Shown here piece by piece: positions 16,244 to 61,413 of a stretch of 64,000 nt of DNA. The number at the start of each line of letters is the position of its first letter. The stretch's first letter is position 1. The notes beneath the pieces were generated by a model. It was not told the origin of the DNA. It did no database searches and saw only the letters and a list, made by a program, of their open reading frames with translations. Source of the stretch: Candidatus Saccharimonadia bacterium (lineage in GTDB: Bacteria > Patescibacteriota > Saccharimonadia > UBA4664 > JBBRNT01); NCBI GenBank assembly GCA_038230095.1, contig JBBRNT010000003.1:9811-73810 (forward strand), read 5' to 3'. A program made the translations under genes and the position numbers.

Positions 16244-16319
16244 CGCCGATGTAGCTCAGTTGGTAGAGCAGTGCTTTCGTAAAGCAAAGGTCAGCGGTTC
16301 AACTCCGCTCATCGGCTCC
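16244..16319 (+). tRNA. tRNA-Thr (anticodon CGT), CCA encoded
   Basis: gccgatg acceptor, D-arm gtagctcagttggtagagc, anticodon loop ttCGTaa, T-arm agcgg-ttcaact-ccgct. Confidence 0.9.
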
Positions 16320-16393
16320 AGCGGGTATAGTTTAGTGGTAGAACGCGACCTTCCCAAGGTTGAGATGCGGGTCCGATTCCCGCTACCCGCTCC
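16320..16393 (+). tRNA. tRNA-Gly (anticodon CCC), CCA encoded
   Basis: gcgggta acceptor, anticodon loop ttCCCaa, T-arm gcggg-tccgatt-cccgc; abuts tRNA-Thr with no spacer. Confidence 0.9.
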
Positions 16394-16431
16394 AAAACAA
16401 ATGGCTCACCTCCGGGTGAGCCATTTGTTTT
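16394..16431 (+). terminator. rho-independent terminator (aaacaaatggctcacc-tccg-ggtgagccatttgttt)
   Basis: 16-bp stem with T-run. Confidence 0.85.
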
Positions 16432-26063: not shown

Positions 26064-27236
26064 TTAGGATTGATAGAACATGAGGCCAAGCTTAATCTGG
26101 AGGGCGTCTTCGAAGTGGCGCGGATCTAGCCCAATCAGCTTCTTAGTTTTCTCAAGGCGATAGATGAGTGTATTGCGGTGTACGTGGAGCCCGAGTGCCG
26201 CCTCGGTCAGGTTTAGGTTGGACCCAAGAAAGGCCTGGACGGTTCTGAAGAGCTGATCGTCGGCTACAAGGGGAGATAGGATCTGGTGAGCAAGCTCAGT
26301 TTTGCGGTCAGCGCCAACATGCGCCAAGGTAATAAACATGCCGACGTCCTTAATGTGGTAGGGCCGCCCCGCACCCCAGACTTTAGTACCAATATTGAGC
26401 GCCAGAATAGCATCCTGATAGCTTTTACGTAAGCCTGACAGATCGGGATAGTACTGACCTATGCCAATAGTGACAGCTCCTTGATGTAGTTTTGACAACG
26501 TATCGTGTACGAACTTTCCCCGTTCCTTCAGGAACCGAATGGTGTTGCTTAGGCTCAGGCTCTCTCCACCAATACCTTTGAGTAGGATGAAGGTATTGGA
26601 GTGGGCGTAGACAATAATATTATCCTGATAGTTCTGGAAAGCCGAACGGATGGCAGCGCAAATAACTTCGGCTGAGGCCATGACGGCGAGACGATACTCA
26701 CTGGAATCGGGGGCAAGACCTTCGGTTCCAACGTCTTCAAAGCCAGCCAGGTGCAGGAGCATGACGGACTGGGGGAAATGGATATTAATTTTGAGAATAT
26801 CGGCCTGCTGGTTGGCCTGGTCATTGGTCATAGAGGCATCATCCAGGAGGAGCTTAATGAAGTCTGCTCGTAGCGCATCGGCTGAGTTTAGCTTGCCCAT
26901 GACAAAGTGTTGGTGGATGAGCACTTCGGCCAGTCCTTGGAGTAAGCTGATGGTTTCGCCGGTGGTAGCGCGTCCAGTTTCGATGAGCCCAAACACACCA
27001 ATGACCCGGCCCTCATAGACAAAGGGCTCCCAGCGGACGTTGAGGCCGCCAGTGCGTGACTCTATGGGCCGATTGGTCTGACAGGCGGCGAGTGCCTCCG
27101 GGATGGTCTTGCCGACCAGCACGCCGCCAGCCATGACCTGGCCATGAAGATCCGCCACCAGAAGGTCTCGGCCGAGTACGCCGGTGACTTGGGACGCGAG
27201 CTGGTTAGCTAGTTCAGGCCCGATAAGCATAGTCAT
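26064..27236 (-). CDS. CdaR/PucR-family transcriptional regulator (sugar-diacid-regulator-like)
   Basis: C-terminal PucR HTH (NLTEAALGLHVHRNTLIYRLEKTKKLIGLDPRHFEDALQ). Confidence 0.75.
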   Translation of the reverse strand: MTMLIGPELANQLASQVTGVLGRDLLVADLHGQVMAGGVLVGKTIPEALAACQTNRPIESRTGGLNVRWEPFVYEGRVIGVFGLIETGRATTGETISLLQGLAEVLIHQHFVMGKLNSADALRADFIKLLLDDASMTNDQANQQADILKINIHFPQSVMLLHLAGFEDVGTEGLAPDSSEYRLAVMASAEVICAAIRSAFQNYQDNIIVYAHSNTFILLKGIGGESLSLSNTIRFLKERGKFVHDTLSKLHQGAVTIGIGQYYPDLSGLRKSYQDAILALNIGTKVWGAGRPYHIKDVGMFITLAHVGADRKTELAHQILSPLVADDQLFRTVQAFLGSNLNLTEAALGLHVHRNTLIYRLEKTKKLIGLDPRHFEDALQIKLGLMFYQS

Positions 27237-28359
27237 CCTCCATAAACTTGCCGTAGAGCATGGCCAGCTTTATCTGAACTGCATCCTCAAACACCCGCGG
27301 ATCTAGACCCAGTGCGTCATTGATGCGGTCTAGGCGATAGACTAGGGTGTTGCGGTGAATACCGAGGCGGTTGGCGGTGGCGGTAAGAGCCATATCTAGG
27401 TCGAAGAATGCCTCCAGCGTGACGAGAACCTCGCTATTGGTATCAATCTTGTCGAGAAGATCGCGACTAAAGTAGATATTATCTTGGTCAACGCCAGACA
27501 GTAGGGGAGCAACTACGCCAAAGTCGTCAATATGGTAGATGCTATTGCCGTCCCAGCGCTGGCGACCGAGCTCTATGGCCGAGCTAGCCTCGCGAAAGCT
27601 ATGGGCTAGGCCGCCACGGCCATGGTGGTAGTTGCCAACCCCAATGATGGCGGGTAGCTTCACCTCGGCGTGGACAATGTCGTAGAGAGTGGGGATGGAC
27701 TTCTTGAAGCCGGCCAAACTGTCTTCTAGCTCGCTGCTACCACCTTGTATGTCCTTGAGAATAACAAATTTATTTTCGCCAATGTAGGTCACAATATTGT
27801 CTCGGCTGGTAGTGTAGAACGAGCTTAGCGCCCGCGCAATGCCGGACTTGTAGCGGCTAATGCGAGTGTCTCGGTCGGAAGAGGGAGTTCGCATAATAGT
27901 AGTGAGCACCGGATCGTCTATGGCCACTAGCACAGCTACGCGCGGCCTGGTGAGGTCTAGGTCGTGGATAGCGGCCTCTGTGGATACTGAGGTAGGGTCC
28001 AGGGTGTCGTCTTGCAGTAGGTCGTAGATAAACTTGTCGGTGCGTTCCTCGACGCGGGGCATTTGGTCGATGAGTAGCTGCTGGTGGAGGATGAGCTCGG
28101 CAATTGAGCGGATAAGTGGCTCAAGCTCCTCAGCGCTGCCCAAGGCAGGGCTAGTGACAATGAAGCCGGCTGGCTGGCCGGCGTAGTTGAAGCTAATTGA
28201 AGTGGGCTGCTGAGTAACGACGAGTACTTCCTCGACGCCGATTTGGTTGGTGGCAAGGACAGTGCCCGAGGGGTCGACAACAGAGATAGGTTGTCCTACT
28301 AGTCCTGCCACCTTATGCTGGATCTTTTCGGCGATCTGAAGATTGAGCACCACGGTCAC
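27214..28359 (-). CDS. CdaR/PucR-family transcriptional regulator, paralogue of the downstream gene
   Basis: Same C-terminal HTH (NRLGIHRNTLVYRLDRINDALGLDPRVFEDAVQ); 23-nt overlap with the paralogue. Confidence 0.75.
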   Translation of the reverse strand: MTVVLNLQIAEKIQHKVAGLVGQPISVVDPSGTVLATNQIGVEEVLVVTQQPTSISFNYAGQPAGFIVTSPALGSAEELEPLIRSIAELILHQQLLIDQMPRVEERTDKFIYDLLQDDTLDPTSVSTEAAIHDLDLTRPRVAVLVAIDDPVLTTIMRTPSSDRDTRISRYKSGIARALSSFYTTSRDNIVTYIGENKFVILKDIQGGSSELEDSLAGFKKSIPTLYDIVHAEVKLPAIIGVGNYHHGRGGLAHSFREASSAIELGRQRWDGNSIYHIDDFGVVAPLLSGVDQDNIYFSRDLLDKIDTNSEVLVTLEAFFDLDMALTATANRLGIHRNTLVYRLDRINDALGLDPRVFEDAVQIKLAMLYGKFMEDDYAYRA

Positions 28360-28746: not shown

Positions 28747-28768
28747 ACCAGCATTCGCTGGTTTTTTG
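28747..28768 (+). terminator. rho-independent terminator (accagc-attc-gctggt + T6)
   Basis: Immediately after tRNA-Val. Confidence 0.75.
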
Positions 28769-28789
28769 TTTTCAAGCTATAATCTGGGT

Positions 28790-30184
28790 ATGAAACCAGG
28801 AAGCCATCTACACTTTATTGGCATTGCCGGCCATGCCATGCGCGGGATTGCGCTGGCAGCCGTGGACCTGGGCTACAAGGTGACTGGCTCGGATGAGGCT
28901 GGCGGCCCACCCGGGACGGATTGGCTAGACGCCAAGAGTATTACGTGGTGGCGAGAACCCGATACTAAGCGGATGGAGGGCGTTGACGCCGTGATCATCA
29001 GTGGCGGTACTAAGCCAGACTTTGTAGAAATTGCCTGGGCCCAGGAGCGACAGGTACCGGTGCTGTCATTTGCAGAGCTGGTGGGGGCTATGGCGGCCGA
29101 GAAGCGACGGATTGTGGTGGCAGGTACACATGGAAAGACGACTACTAGCTCACTTATTACGTGGCTGCTGGAGTCGGCGGGGCGCCACCCAGACTTTCTG
29201 ATAGGCATTCAACCACGCAATTTCGACTCGAGCTCACGCTTGACGACAGATAGCGATGTCATAGTGTTTGAGGGCGATGAGTACACTGCTAGCCAGATAG
29301 ACCCCCAGCCCAAGTTCAACTACTATAAGCCGGATAATCTGGTGGTAACGGCGCTTGAAATGGACCATCCGGATGTGTTTAAGAACGTGGAAGAGATTGC
29401 CGAGCACTTTACTAAGCTAGTAGCAGGAGTGCCGGCCGATGGCCAGGTGAGTTACTGGGTAGGGGCTGAGCGGCTAGCGGCATTGATGAGCGAGGCCAGG
29501 CCCGACGCGCTGAGTTATGATCTGGATAATGCCCACTGGACAGCCTCGGATATTGCATACATGCCAGCTGGCCTTGAGTTTACCGTAAACTATGAGGACA
29601 ATGAGTTGGGCCGCGTGCGGGTGGGGCTGTATGGCGAGCATAATGTCTTGAACACCCTAGGCGCCGTGTCGGCGGTCATGGCGGAAGCCGTACCGTTTGA
29701 GGAGATAGCCGATGGTATGCAGAGCTTTCTGGGTGCCAGCCGTCGTTTTGAGCGCGTAAGTGCGGACGGCGCTGCGGTAACGATCATAGACGACTACGCG
29801 CACCATCCTACTGAGGTTGCGGCGACGATAGCCGCTGCCAAACGGCACTTCCCCGACGGCAAGGTGATAGCGTTGTTCCGGCCTCACACGTATTCCCGCA
29901 CGGCCCAGTTGCTTGCCGAGTACCACGAGGCCTTTGCCCTGGCCGATGTGACCTTTGTGACAGATATTGAAGCCGCACGTGAAGGCGGACAGGAGGAACA
30001 GTACCACGTATCTGGAGAGGACGTGGTGACAGGTGCCAAAGGCGATGTGCGGTATGCTCCAGACCGCTCAAAAATTGTTGACTTAATTACAACAGAAGCC
30101 AAGCCGGGCGATCTGGTGTTGTCCATGACAGTGGGTAGCTACGAGAACATAGTGAAGGAGCTAAATACGCGGCTCAATGGCTAG
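28790..30184 (+). CDS. mpl: Mur ligase of the MurC/Mpl type (closest to UDP-MurNAc:tripeptide ligase Mpl)
   Basis: HFIGIAG..GSD N-terminus, AGTHGKTTT P-loop, EGDEY and KF.YY.P..L....LEMDHPDVF matching the Mpl pattern; leaderless ATG 7 nt after a TATAAT (28778-28783). Confidence 0.75.
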   Translation: MKPGSHLHFIGIAGHAMRGIALAAVDLGYKVTGSDEAGGPPGTDWLDAKSITWWREPDTKRMEGVDAVIISGGTKPDFVEIAWAQERQVPVLSFAELVGAMAAEKRRIVVAGTHGKTTTSSLITWLLESAGRHPDFLIGIQPRNFDSSSRLTTDSDVIVFEGDEYTASQIDPQPKFNYYKPDNLVVTALEMDHPDVFKNVEEIAEHFTKLVAGVPADGQVSYWVGAERLAALMSEARPDALSYDLDNAHWTASDIAYMPAGLEFTVNYEDNELGRVRVGLYGEHNVLNTLGAVSAVMAEAVPFEEIADGMQSFLGASRRFERVSADGAAVTIIDDYAHHPTEVAATIAAAKRHFPDGKVIALFRPHTYSRTAQLLAEYHEAFALADVTFVTDIEAAREGGQEEQYHVSGEDVVTGAKGDVRYAPDRSKIVDLITTEAKPGDLVLSMTVGSYENIVKELNTRLNG

Positions 30185-31691: not shown

Positions 31692-33557
31692 ATGGCACAG
31701 AAAAGTAAGCAGGCTCATACGGTAGACACCGATCAGCTCTATGCAATGCGGCACTCGCTGGCGCATATTATGGCGACGGCTATTCAGAAGCTGCACCCAG
31801 ACGCCAAGTTTGGTGTGGGCCCGGTAGTGGATAATGGCTTCTACTATGACGTAGACGTAGCACAGCCTATTACCGAAGAAGAGTTGAAGGCGATTGAGAA
31901 GAAGATGGCCGAAGTTATTAAGGCCAACTACCCATTTGAGCGGCGCGAGCTGGGGCTGGATGAAGCTATCGCTAAGGTAACGGCCGAAAAACAGGATTAT
32001 AAGATTGAGCTGCTCAATGATTTGAAAGTCCATGGTACAACGAGCGCTAAGGATATTGCTGGTGACACCCTAGAAGTGACCAGAAATGATGTAGATGTAA
32101 CAACGGTATCGTTCTACAAGGATGGTCCGTTTGAAGACCTTTGTCGCGGCCCACACCTGGAATCCACAGGTAAGGTCGGTGCATTTAAGCTTATGCGCGT
32201 ATCTGGCGCCTACTGGCGCGGTGATCAATCCAAGGCCCAAATGCAGCGGGTATACGGTGTAGCATTTGCGACTCGTGATGAGCTAAAGGCTCACCTCACC
32301 ATGCTGGAAGAGGCTGAACGGCGCGACCACCGCAAGCTTGGCCAGGAACTGGATCTATTTGTCTTCAGCGATCTAGTAGGCCAGGGCCTCCCACTATGGA
32401 CGCCACGCGGCACCATCCTGCGTCGCCAACTGGACAACTTTGTCCAGGAGATGCGTGACGAGTACGGCTTCCAGGAAGTGGCAATTCCGCACATTACCAA
32501 GAAAGAACTCTACGAGAAGAGCGGACACTGGGGTAAGTTTAAGGACGATCTGTTCCGCATCAATACCCGCGAGGGCCATGAGTTTGCCATGAAGCCCATG
32601 AACTGTCCGCATCATACCCAGATCTACGCTTCTCGCCCGCGTAGCTACCGTGACTTGCCTATCCGCTACCGTGAGACGACTATGGTCTACCGTGATGAGC
32701 AGAGTGGCGAGCTCGGCGGACTGTCACGCGTGCGTTCTATCACCCAGGATGACGCGCACGTGTTCTGCCGCCAGCAACAGATTCAGGTTGAAGTGCTCAA
32801 GCTATGGGACATAGTGGAGCGGTTCTACGGTGCGTTTGATCTGAAGCTGCGGCTGCGTGTTTCTACCCACGACCCCGAGAAAATGGAGGCGTATACAGGC
32901 TCGGCAGCAGCTTGGGAAAGCTCCGTTGCACAGCTAGAGGCCATAGCCCAGGGGAAGTTGGGTGACGACTACGAGATTGGTGTTGGCGAGGCAGCGTTCT
33001 ATGGTCCCAAACTAGACTTCATGGCGAAGGACGCAATTGCTCGGGAGCATCAGGTAGCTACGATCCAGCTCGACTTCAACCAGCCTGAGGGCTTTGATCT
33101 GACCTGTACCAATGAGCAGGGTGAGGGCGAGCGGATTGTGATGATCCATTGCGCAATTATGGGCAGTATTGAGCGATTTCTTTCGGTTCTTATTGAACAC
33201 ACGGCTGGCCGGTTCCCAGTCTGGCTGGCGCCGGAACAGATCCGGGTAACCACCGTGAACGACACAGACGAGCTTAGCGACTTTGCCGGGGAAGTAGTAG
33301 CCGACATGAAGCTACTGGGGCTCAGGGCACACCTCGACAACTCCAGCGATAGCGTGGGTAAGAAGATTCGCTCGGCTGAACTGGCCAAGGTGCCCTATAC
33401 CATTGTAATTGGCGAGAAGGAAGTGCGGACGCGCGAGGTAACACCACGTATTCGTAAGGATCTGAGCGTGAAAGAACCGGTGGCTATGGATGTAGACCTG
33501 TTCAGTAAGAGCGTGGCTAATGAAGCCAAGAGCCGCACTATGCGGTCATCGCTCTAG
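31692..33557 (+). CDS. thrS: threonine--tRNA ligase lacking the N-terminal TGS domain
   Basis: RHSLAHIMATAIQKL...GVGPVVDNGFYYDVD editing-domain signature, class II motifs, C-terminal anticodon-binding domain; begins directly at the N2 domain. Confidence 0.92.
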   Translation: MAQKSKQAHTVDTDQLYAMRHSLAHIMATAIQKLHPDAKFGVGPVVDNGFYYDVDVAQPITEEELKAIEKKMAEVIKANYPFERRELGLDEAIAKVTAEKQDYKIELLNDLKVHGTTSAKDIAGDTLEVTRNDVDVTTVSFYKDGPFEDLCRGPHLESTGKVGAFKLMRVSGAYWRGDQSKAQMQRVYGVAFATRDELKAHLTMLEEAERRDHRKLGQELDLFVFSDLVGQGLPLWTPRGTILRRQLDNFVQEMRDEYGFQEVAIPHITKKELYEKSGHWGKFKDDLFRINTREGHEFAMKPMNCPHHTQIYASRPRSYRDLPIRYRETTMVYRDEQSGELGGLSRVRSITQDDAHVFCRQQQIQVEVLKLWDIVERFYGAFDLKLRLRVSTHDPEKMEAYTGSAAAWESSVAQLEAIAQGKLGDDYEIGVGEAAFYGPKLDFMAKDAIAREHQVATIQLDFNQPEGFDLTCTNEQGEGERIVMIHCAIMGSIERFLSVLIEHTAGRFPVWLAPEQIRVTTVNDTDELSDFAGEVVADMKLLGLRAHLDNSSDSVGKKIRSAELAKVPYTIVIGEKEVRTREVTPRIRKDLSVKEPVAMDVDLFSKSVANEAKSRTMRSSL

Positions 33558-34865: not shown

Positions 34866-36242
34866 ATGAAAAAGCGACTGACAATTGCAGCGGCAAAAAG
34901 CGCTCGAATGGCAACGCGGCTGCTGGGCCGTGGTACTGGCTCGGCCTTGCCGGGGTACGTGGCCGAACGGCTCGATGGACATATTCTAGCCAAGCTTGGT
35001 CGTGAGCTACCGCAGGGTAGTGTGCTTGTCACTGGCACCAACGGTAAAACTACCACAACCAAGCTGCTACGGGAGATGGTCGATACGCTAGGCATCCGTG
35101 TAATTAATAACCGAGCTGGATCCAACCTGTACCGGGGCATTGTGTCCACTCTGATTGCGGCAACAGATTGGCGCGCTCGGGTGCGGGGCGATATAGGTAT
35201 TTTCGAAGTGGACGAGGCAGCTATGGTGGAGGTAGCGCCGGCGCTACAGCCAAAGCTGATCGTAGTGCTCAACCTGTTCCGGGACCAACTGGACCGGTAC
35301 GGGGAACTAGATACTACGGCTAAGCTCATTGGTAAAGCCATAGCGAGCACGCAGGCAGAAGTGTGGCTGAACGCGGACGATCCGCTCGTGGCTAGCCTGG
35401 CCAGCTATTGCAGCGACCCAGCGCGAGTGCACTACTTTGGAGTTGAGGCGGCCTACCGATCTAAACTGGCTCACGACTACACGGCCGACTCTATCCATGA
35501 TCCGGCCAGTGGTGAGCTTCTAGAATACTCTCAGGTATTCTATGGCCACCTGGGTCACTACTCCAGCAAGGCTACCAAGCGGCCGACGCCGGCAGTAGCA
35601 CTGACGCAGTACACGCCACATGATCTAGCCAGTACGCTCAAGCTTAGGTTAGCTGGAGGGGAAGGGCTGGAGGTAAGCCTGGCATTGCCAGGACTCTATA
35701 ATGCCTATAACGCCCTAGCAGCAGTAGCATTGAGCCAAGTACTTGGGGTGAATTCGGCCCGGATGTCGCAGGTGCTATCTGTAACTAACCCAGCATTTGG
35801 CAGGGTTGAGAAGCTACATCTGGCTGGCCGAGAAGTACGGCTGCTGCTTATTAAGAATCCTACAGGCTTTAACCAAATAATCGAGACATTCCTGTTGCAA
35901 AAAATACAACAAAAAGTATTGATTATCATCAATGATAACTTTGCGGATGGGCGTGACGTGTCTTGGCTCTGGGACGTGGCCATAGAGGATCTAGCCAGCT
36001 TAAACCACGAGATATATCTGTCGGGTGTTCGCCGATACGATATGGCCCTGCGTCTGAAGTATGCGAATATGCCAGTGGCCGGCATAGATGCGACGCCGGC
36101 CGACGTATTGCAGCGCTTGGTGCACCAAGAAACCAAGCCTGGTGAGGTTATCTATGTACTGCCTACCTATACTGCGTTGCTGGAGCTGCGGAGTGGTCTT
36201 GAAAAAATGGGTAAGCTGGCGCCGCCGGGGGAGGACGTATGA
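34866..36242 (+). CDS. murT: lipid II isoglutaminyl synthase, Mur-ligase-like subunit MurT
   Basis: Mur-ligase central domain (VTGTNGKTTT) + C-terminal DUF1727-like domain; translationally coupled (ATGA) to a GatD-type amidotransferase. Confidence 0.8.
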   Translation: MKKRLTIAAAKSARMATRLLGRGTGSALPGYVAERLDGHILAKLGRELPQGSVLVTGTNGKTTTTKLLREMVDTLGIRVINNRAGSNLYRGIVSTLIAATDWRARVRGDIGIFEVDEAAMVEVAPALQPKLIVVLNLFRDQLDRYGELDTTAKLIGKAIASTQAEVWLNADDPLVASLASYCSDPARVHYFGVEAAYRSKLAHDYTADSIHDPASGELLEYSQVFYGHLGHYSSKATKRPTPAVALTQYTPHDLASTLKLRLAGGEGLEVSLALPGLYNAYNALAAVALSQVLGVNSARMSQVLSVTNPAFGRVEKLHLAGREVRLLLIKNPTGFNQIIETFLLQKIQQKVLIIINDNFADGRDVSWLWDVAIEDLASLNHEIYLSGVRRYDMALRLKYANMPVAGIDATPADVLQRLVHQETKPGEVIYVLPTYTALLELRSGLEKMGKLAPPGEDV

Positions 36243-36955
36243 AGCAATCATTAACTATTCTGTATTTGTACCCCACAGAGATGAACATATATGGGGACCG
36301 AGGAAACGTTCTGGCCCTGCAGCGCCGGCTGGAGTGGCGGGGTATTGAGGCACGGGTAATAGAAGCCGGAGTCGGTGAGACCGTAGACTGGACCGAAGTA
36401 GACCTGGTGTTTGCCGGTGGCGGGCAGGACCGCGGACAGATAGCAGTGGGCCTGGACCTCGGTAAGCGATCCCCGCAAATCCACGATGCCGTACGCCGGG
36501 GCGTGGTCTTCCTGACCATCTGTGGAACATACCAGCTATTTACGCGTGGGTTCCGTACGGCGACTGGTGAGCATATTCCGGGTATTGGAGTATTTGATGC
36601 TGAGACTGTGGCCGGACCGAAGCGCCTGATTGGTAACACTACGGTGGAGTCACCATGGGGTGAGCTAGTGGGCTTTGAAAACCACAGTGGGCTGACCTAC
36701 CTGGACCGAGGCAAAGATAGCCTGGGTTACACCAAGGTAGGTGGTAATAATGGCAGTACCGGGGACGAAGGTGCTATTGCCCATAACTGTTTTGGCACGT
36801 ACCTACATGGACCTGTTTTACCCAAGAACCCCGAACTGGCGGACCACCTACTCAGCCTAGCTCTGGAGCGTAAATATCCCGGTAGTTTACTTGGCAAGCT
36901 AGACGATGCGCTAGAAGACCTGGCTCATCAGATTGCCAGTAAGCGGCCGCGCTAG
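36239..36955 (+). CDS. gatD: lipid II isoglutaminyl synthase, glutamine amidotransferase subunit GatD
   Basis: CobB/CobQ-type GATase (catalytic Cys in ICGTYQLF, His in YLHGP), 238 aa. Confidence 0.8.
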   Translation: MKQSLTILYLYPTEMNIYGDRGNVLALQRRLEWRGIEARVIEAGVGETVDWTEVDLVFAGGGQDRGQIAVGLDLGKRSPQIHDAVRRGVVFLTICGTYQLFTRGFRTATGEHIPGIGVFDAETVAGPKRLIGNTTVESPWGELVGFENHSGLTYLDRGKDSLGYTKVGGNNGSTGDEGAIAHNCFGTYLHGPVLPKNPELADHLLSLALERKYPGSLLGKLDDALEDLAHQIASKRPR

Positions 36956-41660: not shown

Positions 41661-41884
41661 TCGACAGGCGGCTCGCCCGGTATACTAGAAGGGTCTCTGC
41701 CTCATTCGCTGATGGCTGCTTATTTTTCTCTGTTATATTCTTTTTGGGAGCCTAAGATTGCTCCTGGCCTTGGCCTGGATGCTGCGGGCACCCACCTGCT
41801 ACTTGGCAGGGAAAGAATGTGCGGTCGGGCGGTGAAGCGGAGCGCAATTATTTGACGGCTATGGCCGTCCTTCTCGTTGGCGAT

Positions 41885-41924: not shown

Positions 41925-42000
41925 CAGGGTGTAGCTTAGTTGGTAAAGCGCTGGGCTGGGGGTCCAGAGACCGCAGGTTCAAGTCCTGTCACCCTGACCA
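41925..42000 (+). tRNA. tRNA-Pro (anticodon GGG), CCA encoded
   Basis: cagggtg acceptor, anticodon arm ctggg-ctGGGgg-tccag, T-arm gcagg-ttcaagt-cctgt. Confidence 0.88.
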
Positions 42001-43640: not shown

Positions 43641-44041
43641 AGCTAGATTGCTAGATGATCGCTTAGGCTGCAAGGCCTGGGAGGAAAGTCCGGACAGCAT
43701 AGAGTAGGACGGTTGCTAACGGCAACCGGGAGTACGTTCGACCATTCTTTCTCTCGAGAAAAGACCGGTCGAGCCAAGCCTAGGGAAAGTGCCACAGAAA
43801 CGAAACCACCCAGCGTAAGCTGGGAACGGGTGAAACGCGCGAGGTAAAAGCTCGTAGTCGCCATGGGTGACCATGGTGGGAGGCAAACCCCGTCCGCTGC
43901 AAGGCAGTTAGTCTACCCCAAGGGGCGTTACTCGCGTCGACTAACGGGTGTCCGCACGAGACTATTGGCAACAATAGTCCCAGATAGATGATCATCGCCC
44001 TGCAAGGGGAGACAGAATCCGGCTTACCGGCAATCTGGCAC
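43641..44041 (+). ncRNA. rnpB: RNase P RNA, bacterial type A
   Basis: GGAAAGTCCGG (P4 5' strand), gccacAGAAA, ACAGAATCCGGCTTA (P4 3' strand), P1 pairing agattgc/gcaatct; about 400 nt without ORFs. Confidence 0.85.
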
Positions 44042-44045
44042 TAGA

Positions 44046-53781: not shown

Positions 53782-54783
53782 CTAGAGCTTGTCCTGGTAC
53801 CAGAGCGAGGCATACTCGGGGGAGATAGGGTTGATGATAACGCCGGTGGAGAGCTCGAAACCAGCCCAAATATTGGGCCTGGGCTCTAGTTTGAGGTGGA
53901 AATGCTGGTGCTCACCGGCCAGAGAGTCCTGGAGAAAGTAATTGTAGTCTATGTTCACGCTATCAAGCTTACCGGTCAGTTTTTTAAGCATTACCGCAAA
54001 CGAGTGGCGCTCGGAGTCCGTAAGATCCGCAAAGCGAGCTCGCTGCTGCTTCGGTAATATCCAGACCCCAAAGGCCTCACGGACGGCGTAGGGCGAGAGC
54101 GCTATAGCGTGTTCGTCCTCGAATATAATGCGCTGTTTCTCGCCGAGCTCCCACTGGATAATGTCCTGGAATGGTGAGCTCCCGTGCGCTCTGACGTATT
54201 CATCGTAGGCTGCAGCTTCTAGCTCGACCGTGGGCGGGATAAACGGTATGGCAACAATCTGGGAGTGGGAGTGAGCGATGCTGGCGCCAGCGTTGGGGCC
54301 GCTGTTCTTGAAAACCACCACGTAGCGGATGCCTTCAAGCGCCTGTAGCGCCTTGGTGCGGCTCATATAGGCTTCGAATATTCGCTCTATCTGCGCTACG
54401 GGTAGGTCGGAGAAGCGGGACTGGTAGTCAGGAGTATCAACGACAATTTCTTGGCTTCCGTAAGCCCTAGGATTGTCGAGAGACAGGGCCGAGTACAAAT
54501 TTTTGATCACCCGCACCTGCCAGTCCCCATGACTGTTTTTTAGTTCAAATATGCTTTTGTCGGCTTCAAACGCCGGCTGGGTGGCGACCGGTCGATCCGG
54601 CTGAGTGGTTTTGCTAAAGCTATCCGGGCGTAAGCTACGCTTGGGTGCAATGACCACATAGCGTTCAAGGAAGTAGTGCTTGCGAATCTCAGACTGCGAG
54701 CTGACGTCACGCATGGTACGCGTAGAGTTGGCCAGAGAGTGGCGGTGGACATGCAGATTAGCAGCTGATCGTGGATCATTCAT
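53782..54783 (-). CDS. galactose-1-phosphate uridylyltransferase-like HIT-superfamily nucleotidyltransferase
   Basis: HxHxQ-type motif ASIAHSHSQIVA in second half-barrel; 333 aa tandem HIT-like halves. Confidence 0.55.
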   Translation of the reverse strand: MNDPRSAANLHVHRHSLANSTRTMRDVSSQSEIRKHYFLERYVVIAPKRSLRPDSFSKTTQPDRPVATQPAFEADKSIFELKNSHGDWQVRVIKNLYSALSLDNPRAYGSQEIVVDTPDYQSRFSDLPVAQIERIFEAYMSRTKALQALEGIRYVVVFKNSGPNAGASIAHSHSQIVAIPFIPPTVELEAAAYDEYVRAHGSSPFQDIIQWELGEKQRIIFEDEHAIALSPYAVREAFGVWILPKQQRARFADLTDSERHSFAVMLKKLTGKLDSVNIDYNYFLQDSLAGEHQHFHLKLEPRPNIWAGFELSTGVIINPISPEYASLWYQDKL

Positions 54784-58445: not shown

Positions 58446-58586
58446 AGCTGTATTTTTTCGATGCTCAGGAGTGGCTGGAGGAGGCGGAAGGAGGGCAGCG
58501 AGGGCGTGGGAGGGTAGGTGGGAGGTTGAAGGAATGATCGGTAGGAGCTAGAATGATGGTTGTTCTTGGTTAATTACAGTATGACG

Positions 58587-58965
58587 CGGGGCTGACCAGC
58601 TTTGACGTTTGGACTTTTACAACCTAGCTTGCAAGCCGTAGGTATGCGTTAAATCCACCAATCAATAGATGCAAACTCTATCGTATCGCGCGTGAAGGCT
58701 CTGTTCGCAGCTCCTTCATTCGCACCAGCTTTCGCCTAATCGCCTAAGCCATCGACCTCCTGACGCCAGATAGGGGCCGGCCGGTGCCAAATTATCTGAC
58801 TGCTTTACAACTGAGATATGCGTTGTAATTAAGACTACAATCTGCTCCTCATTCTTATTTCGTTTACTTCAAGAGGATGGGGCTAAGACAACAAAGTAAA
58901 CTACGCTTGTAGACGGCTGGGTTGTATCCAGACGGACCCGGGTGCAATTCCCGGCAGCTCCTCCA
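58587..58965 (+). ncRNA. ssrA: tmRNA (SsrA)
   Basis: 5' GGGGCTGA + ctttgacg (cf. E. coli GGGGCUGAUUCUGGAUUCGACGGG); 3' ggacccgggtgcaattcccggCAGCTCCtCCA (cf. E. coli ggacgcggguucaacucccgcCAGCUCCACCA); G3:U wobble in acceptor; resume site aatagatGCAAAC (cf. AAUAGUCGCAAAC); tag ORF 58670-58738. Confidence 0.9.
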
Positions 58966-58998
58966 AAAGCGCCTCAGCTCTTGCTGGGGCGTTTTTGG
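58966..58998 (+). terminator. terminator after ssrA (agcgcc...ggggcg + T5)
   Basis: Weak stem, clear T-run. Confidence 0.45.
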
Positions 58999-59063: not shown

Positions 59064-59582
59064 TTAGCAGTAGTTGGGGTGGACCCCCATCATTTGGTTC
59101 CAGCTGGCCGTCTGGCTGCGGATGATCCCATTGAGGCGCCGGGCGACGTCACCAAAGGTGATTGAGTCGAAGAGCACACCCCGGGCGGCCTCTTGGCTTG
59201 CTAGGGTCTCGAACCGAGCCAGGTGCACCAGGACTTCGGGGTTGGTGACGGGCAGCTGCACTGCACGCCTCCGGGGCTCGTGGTGGGTGCAGACAATTCT
59301 CGACTGCTCGTGCCAGGCTGCCGGCCAGCTTCGCATGAGCTGCTCCAGCTCAGTTGCCCAGCCGTGGGTAGCGTCCGAACTCAGCCAGTGCAGGGCGAGT
59401 GGGTGGTGTACCTCGCCAAACGAGCGGTATGTCACCTCTGCCCCCATGTATTGGGCATCGTCGAGCCAGTAGTGATAGGCCTTGGCAGTGACATCGGTCG
59501 TGCCGCGGGTCCGGACAATGTCCATCCGCAGCGCCAGCTTGCTACTGCCCATTGCTTCGAAAAGCCATCGTGTGTCGGTCAA
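59064..59582 (-). CDS. hypothetical protein (172 aa)
   Basis: ORF; pair of 25-nt direct repeats in its upstream region (59600-59680). Confidence 0.45.
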   Translation of the reverse strand: MTDTRWLFEAMGSSKLALRMDIVRTRGTTDVTAKAYHYWLDDAQYMGAEVTYRSFGEVHHPLALHWLSSDATHGWATELEQLMRSWPAAWHEQSRIVCTHHEPRRRAVQLPVTNPEVLVHLARFETLASQEAARGVLFDSITFGDVARRLNGIIRSQTASWNQMMGVHPNYC

Positions 59583-59983
59583 GGTACTTCCTCCAGTTGC
59601 CTAGGCCTAGGCCATCGGCTATGTGTTGGGTGTGGGGTACTGCGCCAATTGTCTAGGCAGGGCCATCGACTATGGACTTGATGCTGCTGCAATCCCATTC
59701 AGGATTGGGCCCATGATACCACAGATTGTTTGGAGGGAATTCGATCGACAGGTGCTTTTGTTGGCAAATACGTAAATGCAGACATGGCTGAAGCTGGTAT
59801 AGCGGTGTAAAACGAATTAATCCCGCATACTACTCTGGGGGAGTGGTGTAGAACGTGCGACGGGGCTAGTAGACCGAGAGCACTATCATGGCGCTTTACT
59901 TTGGCGGTAACGCTTGTATGGGGGGCGGGTTACTGGTAATACTGTAGCTACACGCCCTACGGCCAGTTCCTTGAGGAGATAGT

Positions 59984-60559
59984 ATGCGCTCACTACATTT
60001 GCTTGAACAGAACAGCGTCTGCGACCATGTCGCAGTGCTGAACGATTCCGCTATCCCCGGCGGAAGCGGAAGCTGCCCGCTCCTGGCCGACTGTACCGCC
60101 GGGCGGGTAGTGGGACACGGTGGGCTTCAATGCGTTCCCAGGACGGCCCAAGAGGTGGCGCGTAATGTTCTGAGCGGACGGGTGGCGCCCGAGGTAGAAC
60201 TGCGCGAACTGCGCCAATCGCCCTTGTTTCGGCCGGGTCAAGTGCGGTTCATTGACCCATATGCGGGGCAGGTGCCCGGTGAGGCTACCATTGACGCCAG
60301 CTTGGTTATGTCCCAGATTCGACAATGGGTGGCCGTTCTGCTGGATACACCCGTGCCCGAACCGGTGGCCCCCGCTGACCACTGCAAAAGGCACAGTGAG
60401 TACACCGAAGGCTGCTCCAACTGCGGTATGGCCCGGCTGGTCATGCTGGACCGGACGGACGTGGTCTGGCCAGGCGGCCGTCCCGCTCGAGTCCCGCGTG
60501 ATCAGTGCCGCTGCCCAGTACTACGCGTGGGTGACTTCTGCCCGGTTCACGGCGGATAG
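59984..60559 (+). CDS. hypothetical Cys-rich protein (191 aa)
   Basis: gaggag RBS 59965-59970. Confidence 0.45.
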   Translation: MRSLHLLEQNSVCDHVAVLNDSAIPGGSGSCPLLADCTAGRVVGHGGLQCVPRTAQEVARNVLSGRVAPEVELRELRQSPLFRPGQVRFIDPYAGQVPGEATIDASLVMSQIRQWVAVLLDTPVPEPVAPADHCKRHSEYTEGCSNCGMARLVMLDRTDVVWPGGRPARVPRDQCRCPVLRVGDFCPVHGG

Positions 60560-60714
60560 CCACACAGCGCTCAGTTGTCTTCGGATGACTGGGCGCTTTC
60601 ATTTGCCTTGAATAATTTCTAATCTAGAGTACTATTGCTGTCATCTGGCAATCGCCAGGGTACACGCCACCAATAAGGGTTCGCCATGAGGTGCACAGAT
60701 AGAAAGGTAGGCTC

Positions 60715-61413
60715 ATGGACTCGTCTACGGCCACTTTATCAGAAGCAGATACCGACCTCCTCAATGCCATTCAAGGCGGTATACACCCGGACCGACTGTC
60801 GACGGGGGTTAAGCTGGAGGTACTCCGGCATGCGATTGGCGTACTCACCAAAATGGGTGGCAAGTCGCCTGGCTTTCGGCCCCTGTCAGGCCGGTACCCC
60901 GAGACCGGATCGTTCTCGCCCTACGTAGACTTGCTGTACCCAGCCGGCCTTGGTGAGACCACGAAGGTCAATCAGATCTTTCGTATGGAGTCTGTCGAAA
61001 TAGGCGGTTTCAAGAAGGGTAAGCGAGCGCCGCACAAGTACGTGCGCAAGCATCATGCTCAGGATGACGTCCGTTGGGTGACGCACGACCACTACCTGGT
61101 AACTCAGGACGGCCTCATGTTGCGGGAAAGCCAGACGATCTACCTACGGCGCGTAGGTGATGAACAGGAAAATATCTGCGCCGCCGTAGATATGACAGTC
61201 ATGGACGATGCGGCGATCCTGGCATTCTTGGAACTGCCATACACGAGTGATTTCGGGGTGCTGTCATCGTGCCTCAAGAGCATCCGAATCAGCATTCGTG
61301 CCAGCATCGCAGAATCTCGTGACCGGCTTGCTAGCCTGGAGGCGATGCACGCTCAGATCGACGCTGTCTGGCACCGAGCTGGCGGGCCCACCGGTAGCTT
61401 GCCGAGGTACTGA
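60715..61413 (+). CDS. hypothetical protein (232 aa)
   Basis: ORF with good coding periodicity. Confidence 0.45.
   Translation: MDSSTATLSEADTDLLNAIQGGIHPDRLSTGVKLEVLRHAIGVLTKMGGKSPGFRPLSGRYPETGSFSPYVDLLYPAGLGETTKVNQIFRMESVEIGGFKKGKRAPHKYVRKHHAQDDVRWVTHDHYLVTQDGLMLRESQTIYLRRVGDEQENICAAVDMTVMDDAAILAFLELPYTSDFGVLSSCLKSIRISIRASIAESRDRLASLEAMHAQIDAVWHRAGGPTGSLPRY

What the first reader, a model, noticed from the sequence alone, without database searches (positions are those of the whole stretch)
58587..58965. Unannotated tmRNA (ssrA) with a 22-residue tag ending ...APAFA
No ORF, yet the segment has all the tmRNA hallmarks. The acceptor arm is tRNA-Ala-like (GGGGCUG/CAGCUCC with a G3:U wobble). 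The D-analog is cuuugacg. The T-arm/acceptor/CCA end is nearly identical to E. coli ssrA. The resume context is AAUAGAUGCAAAC. From the GCA at 58670 the tag reads ANSIVSRVKALFAAPSFAPAFA, stopping at TAA 58736-58738. That tag is long and ends in AFA rather than the common LAA/VAA, which could mean a divergent protease adaptor.
Basis: partly seen in the sequence, partly recalled or inferred. Interest (0 to 1): 0.6.

Follow-up and report, generated by a model that had tools for sequence, protein, structure and literature searches.

The report
Ordinary tmRNA gene of a Saccharibacterium
This is a genuine ribosome-rescue RNA gene (tmRNA/ssrA) from an uncultured Saccharibacteria (TM7) bacterium; its long tag ending in AFA is typical of that lineage, and the only real oddity is a rare U where tmRNAs normally have an A next to the CCA end.

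Summary
Window 58588-58965 (+) is a full-length one-piece tmRNA (Rfam RF00023, 108 bits against a threshold of 47). ARAGORN finds the same gene and the same tag, ANSIVSRVKALFAAPSFAPAFA, once its threshold is lowered to 95%. ThrRS homologues place the window in Candidatus Saccharimonadales. Five syntenic relatives and six other CPR tmRNAs carry the same tag family (21-31 codons, consensus ...VSRVKSLF.APSFAPA[FLI]A). The nearest relative ends in the same AFA, and substitutions in the tag fall mostly on third codon positions. So the tag is typical of the lineage and under selection. Long AFA-ending tags also have a precedent in Mollicutes, where Lon reads them. Covariation supports the acceptor stem, P2, helix 5, PK2-PK4 and the T-arm; PK1 is weak. 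Two lineage features, G55 in the T-loop paired with AG instead of GG in the D-loop, together with a U discriminator unique to the window, push ARAGORN below its default threshold, which may explain the missing annotation. U73 is rare and unexplained. Which protease reads the tag is unknown. Verdict: a new member of a known kind, of low interest.

The parts
58588..58965 (+). tmRNA (ssrA) gene, one-piece, 378 nt, with the CCA encoded
   Evidence: Rfam RF00023 at 108.1 bits over the full model. ARAGORN -ps gives the same coordinates. Orthologues sit at the syntenic position in five relatives.
58588..58594 (+). Acceptor stem, 5' strand GGGGCUG (G3 of the G3:U70 pair at 58590)
   Evidence: Pairs with 58955-58961. 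All 7 pairs are invariant in 9 sequences, including G:U at position 3.
58595..58605 (+). D-loop analogue ACCAGCUUUGA, with AG where most tmRNAs have GG
   Evidence: AG accompanies G55/C55 in all Saccharibacteria-type tmRNAs. GG accompanies U55 in 59 of 62 other tmRNAs.
58606..58636 (+). P2 helix, 5' strand (pairs with 58905-58934)
   Evidence: 24 pairs in three segments, 16 of them with compensatory changes, 88-100% of cells paired.
58637..58659 (+). PK1 region: a 4-bp hairpin CGUA/UGCG plus a possible 2-3-bp second stem
   Evidence: The hairpin is 75% paired with no double-sided changes. I could not establish the second stem, so support is weak.
58671..58739 (+). Tag reading frame: resume codon GCA 58671-58673, 22 codons (ANSIVSRVKALFAAPSFAPAFA), stop TAA 58737-58739
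   Evidence: ARAGORN -ps. The 22-codon frame is conserved in six clade members, with differences by codon position of 87/50/148.
58728..58749 (+). Helix 5, with the stop codon in its loop
   Evidence: 6 pairs, 3 with compensatory changes, 87% paired.
58750..58800 (+). Pseudoknot PK2 (stems 58750-58757/58779-58786 and 58765-58773/58792-58800)
   Evidence: Helices 7 and 8: 83% and 90% paired, with 4 and 5 pairs showing compensatory changes.
58805..58843 (+). Pseudoknot PK3
   Evidence: Helices 9 and 10: all 8 pairs of the hairpin show compensatory changes. The crossing 4-bp stem is 72% paired.
58847..58901 (+). Pseudoknot PK4
   Evidence: Helices 11 and 12: 89% and 87% paired, with 8 of 9 and 5 of 6 pairs showing compensatory changes.
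58938..58954 (+). T-arm CCGGG-UGCAAUU-CCCGG, with G (58944) at the position of the usual U/pseudouridine 55
   Evidence: Sequence. The stem is 100% paired with 2 covarying pairs. G55 is shared by the Saccharibacteria tmRNAs.
58955..58961 (+). Acceptor stem, 3' strand CAGCUCC (U70 at 58959)
58962..58962 (+). Discriminator base U (normally A)
   Evidence: Sequence. Identical in a second assembly, L131. All ten A73 relatives differ here. One distant metagenomic tmRNA, L121, shares it.
58963..58965 (+). Genome-encoded CCA 3' end
   Evidence: Sequence; Rfam model positions 372-374.
58966..58996 (+). Intrinsic terminator: 13-bp hairpin with a UCUU loop and a U-run
   Evidence: RNAfold gives -21.3 kcal/mol. 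The consensus scan also finds a terminator-like site at 58977-58990.
58526..58554 (+). Possible sigma-70-type promoter TTGAAG-17-TAGAAT, 34 nt upstream of the mature 5' end
   Evidence: A consensus match only, 9 of 12. Not evidence of function.

Best explanation
This is the chromosomal ssrA gene of an uncultured Candidatus Saccharimonadales (Saccharibacteria/TM7, candidate phyla radiation) bacterium. It encodes a conventional one-piece tmRNA. The following steps are inferred from what is established for the family. The precursor is transcribed as its own unit and ends at the terminator directly after the CCA. Its 5' leader is removed by RNase P, whose RNA is also in the window. AlaRS charges the tRNA-like domain with alanine through the G3:U70 pair. 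With SmpB and EF-Tu, the RNA enters the empty A site of ribosomes stalled on broken mRNAs. Translation resumes at GCA (58671) and appends A-ANSIVSRVKALFAAPSFAPAFA, then terminates at UAA in the loop of helix 5. This frees the ribosome and marks the protein for an ATP-dependent protease. What is shown here is the gene, its structure, its conserved genomic position and coding-type selection on the tag. Charging, SmpB dependence and proteolysis are inferred. The long tag and its A-hydrophobic-A ending are traits of the lineage. So are G55 in the T-loop and the matching A in the D-loop analogue. The U discriminator is a derived single change in this organism that is probably tolerated, perhaps at some cost in charging efficiency.
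For: Identity: RF00023 at 108 bits over the full model; ARAGORN -ps gives the same gene and tag. Organism: the ThrRS hits that carry a name are all Saccharimonadales or Saccharibacteria, at 66-73% identity. Orthology: tmRNAs lie at the same place beside the conserved YifB / GalT-like / MGDG-synthase / GH block in L124, L125, L127, L128 and L129. Structure: 90 pairs are 89.4% paired against 32-43% for slid controls; 53 pairs show compensatory changes; 0 of 500 shuffles reach the observed values. Tag: the 22-codon frame is conserved and differences by codon position are 87/50/148. L124 shares the last 12 residues, LFAAPSFAPAFA. The tag family appears in all 12 CPR tmRNAs examined, the window included. 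Independent transcription unit: a -21.3 kcal/mol terminator follows the CCA. RNase P RNA lies at 43643-44042. smpB sits next to a tmRNA of the same tag family in L056. The G55 change has a matching D-loop change: AG with G55/C55 in every case, GG with U55 in 59 of 62. U73 is present in two assemblies and in an independent, distant tmRNA, L121.
Against: The discriminator is U. Reviews name an adenosine discriminator together with G3:U70 as the keys to AlaRS recognition (PMC3968760), and only 9 of 136,846 bacterial tRNA-Ala genes have U73 (PMC6097841). All ten relatives that were not selected for U73 have A73. PK1 has little support. smpB is not in the 64 kb window. There are no expression, processing or aminoacylation data. 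Both assemblies that show U73 probably come from the same read set.
Confidence: 0.9

Rival explanations
1. The gene is a recently disabled or decaying tmRNA. Under this reading the A73-to-U change cripples alanylation, and ARAGORN's sub-threshold score reflects real degeneration.
For: U73 is unique among the clade's tmRNAs and extremely rare in alanine acceptors. ARAGORN only calls the gene below its default threshold, with a 'p' suffix in batch output.
Against: Everything else is intact. G3:U70, all helices and the 22-codon frame are preserved, and the last 12 tag residues are identical to L124's. The ARAGORN penalty comes mostly from lineage-wide features: changing the D-loop AG to GG alone rescues detection, while U73A alone does not. 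An unrelated, full-length tmRNA (L121, 107.6 bits) also has U73. From my own knowledge, G3:U70 is the dominant AlaRS determinant and position-73 variants of alanine acceptors are still charged, only less efficiently. tmRNA-SmpB was found in all bacteria surveyed (PMC4131195 abstract).
Confidence: 0.06
2. The gene is a functional tmRNA whose tag family (long, ending in A-hydrophobic-A) directs substrates to a protease or adaptor other than ClpXP/SspB, as in Mollicutes where Lon reads the ...NYAFA tag. This concerns the downstream mechanism only and is compatible with the best explanation for the gene's identity.
For: The tags are 21-31 residues long, against about 10 in most bacteria (PMC3968760). 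A VSRVKSLF / PSFAPA core is conserved and under purifying selection. The tags end in AFA, ALA, AIA, VLA or VYA and not in LAA. There is a Mollicutes precedent (PMC9382460). Both lineages have reduced genomes.
Against: TM7x has an annotated clpP, so Clp is not generally lost in Saccharibacteria. A hydrophobic C-terminus ending in Ala is still the generic ssrA pattern. No protease or adaptor gene lies in the window, and none was found in the few loci I hold (uninformative).
Confidence: 0.3
3. The gene is a tmRNA copy carried by, or duplicated through, a mobile element integrated at ssrA.
For: The 2.4 kb directly downstream (59064-61413) is a GC-rich block of ORFs with no homologue in any relative. 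In relative L129 a large serine recombinase abuts the tmRNA 3' end.
Against: The tmRNA sits at the conserved syntenic position. No integrase lies nearby. The tmRNA 3' end is not repeated within the window. Only one tmRNA is present in the window.
Confidence: 0.02

Closest known systems
Canonical one-piece bacterial tmRNA (SsrA; Rfam RF00023), e.g. E. coli SsrA
   Same: It has the same overall architecture: a tRNA-Ala-like acceptor stem with G3:U70, a reduced D-loop, a T-arm, an encoded CCA, the long P2 helix, a tag ORF between PK1 and helix 5 with the stop codon in the helix 5 loop, and then PK2-PK4. It gives a full-length covariance-model match.
   Different: The tag has 22 encoded residues, against 10 in E. 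coli, and ends in AFA rather than LAA. The T-loop has G at position 55, so no pseudouridine 55 is possible. The D-loop analogue has AG rather than GG. The discriminator is U rather than A. PK1 appears reduced.
Saccharibacteria/Patescibacteria tmRNAs in public genomes and metagenomes (L124, L125, L127, L128, L129, L054, L072, L046, L067, L056, L121)
   Same: They share the tag family (...VSRVKSLF.APSFAPA[FLI]A and variants). Most also share the G55 T-loop and the AG D-loop (L067 has C55; L056 has the canonical U55 and GG), and five share the genomic position. L124 is 84% identical overall and ends in the same AFA.
   Different: All except the distant L121 have an A discriminator. Some use non-alanine resume codons: AGC in L124, GAC in L125 and UCC in L072.
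Mollicutes ssrA tags (Mesoplasma florum ...NYAFA, recognised by Lon)
   Same: The tag is long and its last three residues are AFA. The host has a reduced genome (PMC9382460).
   Different: There is no sequence relationship beyond the ending. Most relatives of the window end in ALA, AIA or VLA. Loss of ClpXP, the reason for the Mollicutes switch, is not shown here, and TM7x has an annotated clpP.

Membership tests
tmRNA (SsrA), one-piece; Rfam RF00023 | Covariance-model score above the curated gathering threshold over the full model | tested here: met
   108.1 bits against a threshold of 47, model positions 1-374 of 374, E = 2.8e-41.
tmRNA (SsrA), one-piece; Rfam RF00023 | tRNA-Ala-like acceptor stem with a G3:U70 wobble pair and a 3' CCA | tested here: met
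   GGGGCUG/CAGCUCC with G3:U70, invariant in 9 sequences, and an encoded CCA.
tmRNA (SsrA), one-piece; Rfam RF00023 | T-arm with a 5-bp stem and 7-nt loop, plus a stemless D-loop analogue able to contact it | tested here: met
   CCGGG-UGCAAUU-CCCGG is 100% paired with 2 covarying pairs. The loop sequence is atypical (G55), but it covaries with the D-loop change GG to AG.
tmRNA (SsrA), one-piece; Rfam RF00023 | Adenosine discriminator. This is a typical AlaRS identity element, not part of the family definition. | tested here: not met
   U at 58962. A second full-length tmRNA, L121, also has U73. I treat this as an anomaly within the family and not as grounds for exclusion.
tmRNA (SsrA), one-piece; Rfam RF00023 | Short internal tag ORF with a resume codon after PK1, a hydrophobic C-terminus, and a stop codon in helix 5 | tested here: met
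   GCA at 58671, 22 codons, UAA at 58737 in the helix 5 loop. The frame is conserved with a third-position excess of substitutions, 87/50/148.
tmRNA (SsrA), one-piece; Rfam RF00023 | Four pseudoknots: PK1 before the tag and PK2-PK4 after it | tested here: inconclusive
   Both stems of PK2, PK3 and PK4 are supported by covariation. PK1 is supported only as a 4-bp hairpin with no compensatory changes.
tmRNA (SsrA), one-piece; Rfam RF00023 | Partner protein SmpB encoded in the genome | not testable with these tools
smpB lies next to the tmRNA in the patescibacterial locus L056.
tmRNA (SsrA), one-piece; Rfam RF00023 | Expression, 5'/3' processing, alanylation and tagging activity | not testable with these tools
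   These need RNA-seq or northern blots, in vitro charging, and proteomics.
Lon-directed long ssrA tags (Mollicutes type) | A long tag whose C-terminus (...YAFA) is recognised by Lon in a genome that lacks active ClpXP | not tested
   Only the resemblance (22 residues...AFA) was seen. The protease repertoire of this genome is unknown, and TM7x has an annotated clpP. I do not file this tmRNA under that type.

The most novel reading that the evidence does not exclude
Saccharibacteria and related Patescibacteria may have a distinct trans-translation set-up. One part would be a long tag with a conserved VSRVKSLF...PSFAPA-hydrophobic-A degron that is read by a protease or adaptor other than the classical ClpX/SspB pair, which would parallel the Mollicutes switch to Lon. 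The other part would be a remodelled tRNA-like domain (A18/G55, hence no pseudouridine 55) that in this organism even tolerates a U discriminator. That would imply an AlaRS with relaxed dependence on position 73, or escape from DTD proofreading, which in bacteria is disfavoured by U73.
Probability: 0.25. Interest if true: 0.45.

Novelty: new member of a known kind. Interest (0 to 1): 0.22.

Why it matters
For this genome the result is routine: a housekeeping RNA gene that should be annotated. It has some wider practical value. ARAGORN at default settings missed 6 of the 12 CPR tmRNAs examined here, although Rfam scores them at 82-120 bits. The causes I could pin down are the lineage's T-loop/D-loop variant and, in L124, a non-alanine resume codon. 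Pipelines that rely on ARAGORN will therefore under-report tmRNA in Patescibacteria and could wrongly suggest that trans-translation has been lost. The conserved CPR tag family and the rare U73 discriminator are small but testable leads on how proteolysis targeting and AlaRS recognition work in these reduced genomes.

Tried and rejected
1. Default ARAGORN on the window and on the local region found nothing. This is explained by in-silico reversion and is not evidence against the gene.

2. The genome-collection scan with GGGTNCAATTCCCNNCAGCTCCNCCA was too permissive. It stopped at 120 rows and included ordinary tRNA genes. The six 'G73' matches that I first took for tmRNAs are tRNAs, and the L032, L022 and L094 matches are not tmRNAs by Rfam.

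3. An exact look-up of the YifB protein found nothing on record. The cluster look-up returned no names.

4. A homologue search with the adjacent alpha/beta hydrolase gave only two hits, on contigs that stop short of the tmRNA.

5. Genomic island at ssrA: there is no integrase, no repeat of the tmRNA 3' end and no phage-family hit for the downstream ORFs. I rejected this for the window, although that region is variable.

6. A search for smpB, clpP and clpX in the window and in the CPR loci I hold found only smpB in L056. The negative results are uninformative because so little of any genome was sampled.

7. Literature searches for tmRNA or trans-translation in Saccharibacteria, Patescibacteria or the CPR found no description of these tags.

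8. I could not establish a second stem for PK1 from the alignment.

Full report
**Observation.** Rfam's tmRNA model (RF00023) matches window 58588-58965 on the + strand from the first to the last model position. The score is 108.1 bits (gathering score 47, E = 2.8e-41). ARAGORN at default settings reports six tRNAs in the window and no tmRNA. With its threshold lowered to 95% it reports a tmRNA at exactly the same coordinates, with resume context AAUAGAU|GCA and the tag ANSIVSRVKALFAAPSFAPAFA*. The gene starts at 58588, the resume codon GCA is at 58671-58673, and the stop codon TAA is at 58737-58739.

**Organism.** The window's ThrRS (31692-33557) has thousands of strong homologues. Every one that carries a name is 'Candidatus Saccharimonadales' or 'Candidatus Saccharibacteria', at 66-73% identity. 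Identical proteins lie on an NCBI contig of 132,368 bp and in Logan assemblies of run SRR19962015. The window is therefore a piece of a Saccharibacteria (TM7, candidate phyla radiation) genome from a sparsely sampled branch.

**Relatives.**
- A pattern scan of the genome collection with the tmRNA 3' end returned mostly canonical sequences, together with several Saccharibacteria tmRNAs.
- The GalT/HIT-like gene upstream (53782-54783) served as a synteny anchor. It led to contigs in which the YifB, GalT-like, MGDG-synthase and glycoside-hydrolase block is conserved.
- Five of those loci (L124, L125, L127, L128 and L129) have a full-length tmRNA at the corresponding position, scoring 90-120 bits. 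L126 and L130 repeat the same gene block (L126 that of L125, L130 that of L129), but the stretches held stop short of the tmRNA position.
- The nearest, L124, is 84% identical to the window's tmRNA.
- This shows that the window's gene is the vertically inherited chromosomal ssrA.

**The tag.** Read in the aligned frame, the tags are:

| Source | Tag | Note |
|---|---|---|
| window | ANSIVSRVKALFAAPSFAPAFA | |
| L124 | SNSILSRLKSLFAAPSFAPAFA | resume codon AGC |
| L125 | DNSFVSRVKSLFAVPSFAPALA | resume codon GAC |
| L127 | AKSFVSRVASLFSSPALAPVLA | |
| L128 | AKSFVSRVKSLFEAPSFAPAIA | |
| L129 | ANNLVSRVKSLFQAPSFATALA | |
| L072 | SNFFARVKAAFSMPQLAPALA | more distant; resume codon UCC |
| L054 | ANFFSKVKAAFSMPSFAPVYA | more distant |
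| L056 | ANNVMAMIKNALRVPSFAPVLA | more distant |
| L067 | ATLTQRVASAWNSLKAAFTVPAFAPAVA | more distant |
| L046 | ANVTKMKEALEEKVANVADAFRLPALATVTA | more distant |
| L121 | ANSLVNKVKNAFASLSPALSVA | more distant |

- Among the six clade members the frame is always 22 codons. Pairwise differences fall 87, 50 and 148 times on codon positions 1, 2 and 3, which is the pattern expected of a translated sequence under purifying selection.
- The long tag and its A-hydrophobic-A ending are therefore traits of the lineage. The exact AFA ending is shared with the nearest relative.
- ARAGORN's built-in tag list recognises none of these tags. I found no paper that describes them.
- A long tag ending in AFA is not unprecedented. 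The Mesoplasma florum tag ends in NYAFA and is recognised by Lon, because Mollicutes lack active ClpXP (PMC9382460).
- For Saccharibacteria the parallel is only a resemblance. The TM7x transcriptome preprint lists clpB and clpP among TM7x genes, and the window contains no Clp, Lon or FtsH gene.

**Structure.**
- RNAalifold on nine sequences predicts 78 nested pairs, 45 of them with compensatory changes.
- I added candidate crossing stems for the pseudoknots and counted pairs. Of 90 pairs in 13 helices, 89.4% of cells form standard pairs, against 32-43% when the 3' partners are slid by 1-3 columns. Fifty-three pairs show changes on both sides. None of 500 shuffles reaches the observed values.
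- The acceptor stem is invariant, including G3:U70. P2, helix 5, the T-arm and both stems of PK2, PK3 and PK4 are supported. PK1 is supported only as a 4-bp hairpin with no compensatory changes.
- The tag frame lies between PK1 and helix 5, with the stop codon in the helix 5 loop.
- A 13-bp hairpin with a U-run (-21.3 kcal/mol) starts directly after the CCA, and a weak promoter-like site lies upstream. Both fit an independent transcription unit.

**Atypical features of the tRNA-like domain.**
1. *T-loop and D-loop.* The T-loop is UGCAAUU, with G where tRNAs and most tmRNAs have U55. In E. coli tmRNA that U is converted to pseudouridine (PMC3968760). The Saccharibacteria tmRNAs share G55. The exceptions are C55 in L067, and L127, which has C at position 54 beside its G55. 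The D-loop analogue changes in step. AG replaces the usual GG in every G55/C55 tmRNA, whereas 59 of 62 U55 tmRNAs in the sample have GG. Contacts between the D-loop and T-loop are needed for SmpB binding (PMC3968760). I read this as a compensated change in the lineage, though it probably reflects only one or a few evolutionary events.
2. *Discriminator.* The discriminator is U (58962).
   - All ten relatives that were not selected for U73 have A. L124's last 32 bases are identical to the window's apart from this position.
   - A Logan assembly of the same run, L131, has U over 4,369 identical bases, so this is not an artefact of one assembler.
   - A scan of the metagenome collection for G55 together with U73 found a single contig, L121. 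It carries a full-length tmRNA (107.6 bits) from a distant, AT-rich organism with a related tag.
   - An adenosine discriminator is cited with G3:U70 as a key to AlaRS recognition. Only 9 of 136,846 bacterial tRNA-Ala genes have U73 (PMC6097841).
   - Everything else about the gene is intact and a second U73 tmRNA exists. I therefore judge U73 to be a tolerated variant and not a sign of decay, but this remains unexplained.

**Why the gene may be unannotated.** In-silico reversion shows the cause. Default ARAGORN finds the window's gene after the D-loop AG is changed to GG, or after U73A and G55U are made together. Neither U73A nor G55U alone is enough. L124 is missed only because its resume codon is AGC. 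Overall, default ARAGORN found 6 of the 12 CPR tmRNAs.

**Surroundings.**
- smpB is not in the window. It does lie next to the tmRNA in the patescibacterial locus L056.
- The three ORFs directly downstream (59064-61413) are GC-rich. They have no Pfam or PHROG match and no counterpart in any relative, although the Exo/GIY-YIG gene beyond them is conserved in L124.
- There is no integrase and no repeat of the tmRNA 3' end. This is a variable region with no recognisable island. In L129, by contrast, a large serine recombinase abuts the tmRNA.

**Verdict.** This is a real, ordinary tmRNA gene: a new member of a known family in an under-sampled lineage. Its tag is typical of that lineage. The remaining points of interest are minor. 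They are a rare U discriminator, a compensated T-loop/D-loop variant, systematic under-detection of CPR tmRNAs by ARAGORN, and the open question of which protease reads the CPR tag.

Noticed in passing
window 43643-44042: Bacterial RNase P RNA class A (247 bits) with an insertion of about 45 nt in one hairpin. The same RNA lies near the conserved gene block in relatives L125, L128 and L129.
   Followed up: no
window 41691-41847: 6S RNA match just above threshold (53 bits against a gathering score of 46.4), directly upstream of tRNA-Pro (41925-42000).
   Followed up: no
window 16245-16394: tRNA-Thr(CGU) and tRNA-Gly(CCC) abut with no spacer: one ends at 16320 and the next starts at 16321.
   Followed up: no
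window 59064-61413: A block of three ORFs (172, 191 and 232 aa) directly downstream of the tmRNA. GC reaches 64%. They have no Pfam or PHROG hit and no homologue in any syntenic relative, although the flanking genes are conserved. No integrase or att repeat is present.
   Followed up: partly
L129 2609-4499: [quoted passage not shown] A mobile element is probably integrated at ssrA in this relative.
   Followed up: partly
L124 2984-3361; L125 4354-4742; L072 6818-7199: The resume codons are not alanine codons: AGC (Ser), GAC (Asp) and UCC (Ser). The tag frames are otherwise conserved. Changing L124's codon to GCA in silico restores ARAGORN detection; the same change did not rescue L125 or L072.
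   Followed up: partly
L121 1119-1498: An AT-rich metagenomic contig carries a full-length tmRNA that also has G55 and a U discriminator. It lies immediately upstream of infC-rpmI-rplT. It was the only G55+U73 hit in the metagenome collection.
   Followed up: partly
L125 11050-11698; L127 10993-11610; L128 7757-8501; L129 10990-11612: Gaps of 620-740 bp with no called gene lie between the GalT-like gene and a TrmB-family regulator gene, and Rfam finds nothing in them. The TrmB gene and the gap are absent from the window and from L124.
   Followed up: no
window 58468-58560: A purine-rich, G-rich tract (GGAGGAGGCGGAAGGAGGGCAGCGAGGGCGTGGGAGGGTAGGTGGGAGG...) lies just upstream of the tmRNA and overlaps the promoter-like site.
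   Followed up: no
window 34866-36955: A MurT/GatD-like pair (lipid II isoglutaminyl synthase), a feature typical of Gram-positive-type cell walls. murC lies nearby at 28766-30184.
   Followed up: no
window 26064-28359: Two adjacent paralogous PucR-type regulators, each with a GGDEF-like domain and an HTH_30 domain.
   Followed up: no
12 CPR tmRNAs (window; L046, L054, L056, L067, L072, L121, L124, L125, L127, L128, L129): Default ARAGORN v1.2.41 detects only 6 of 12 tmRNAs that Rfam scores at 82-120 bits, so tmRNA is likely to be under-annotated in Patescibacteria by ARAGORN-based pipelines.
   Followed up: yes
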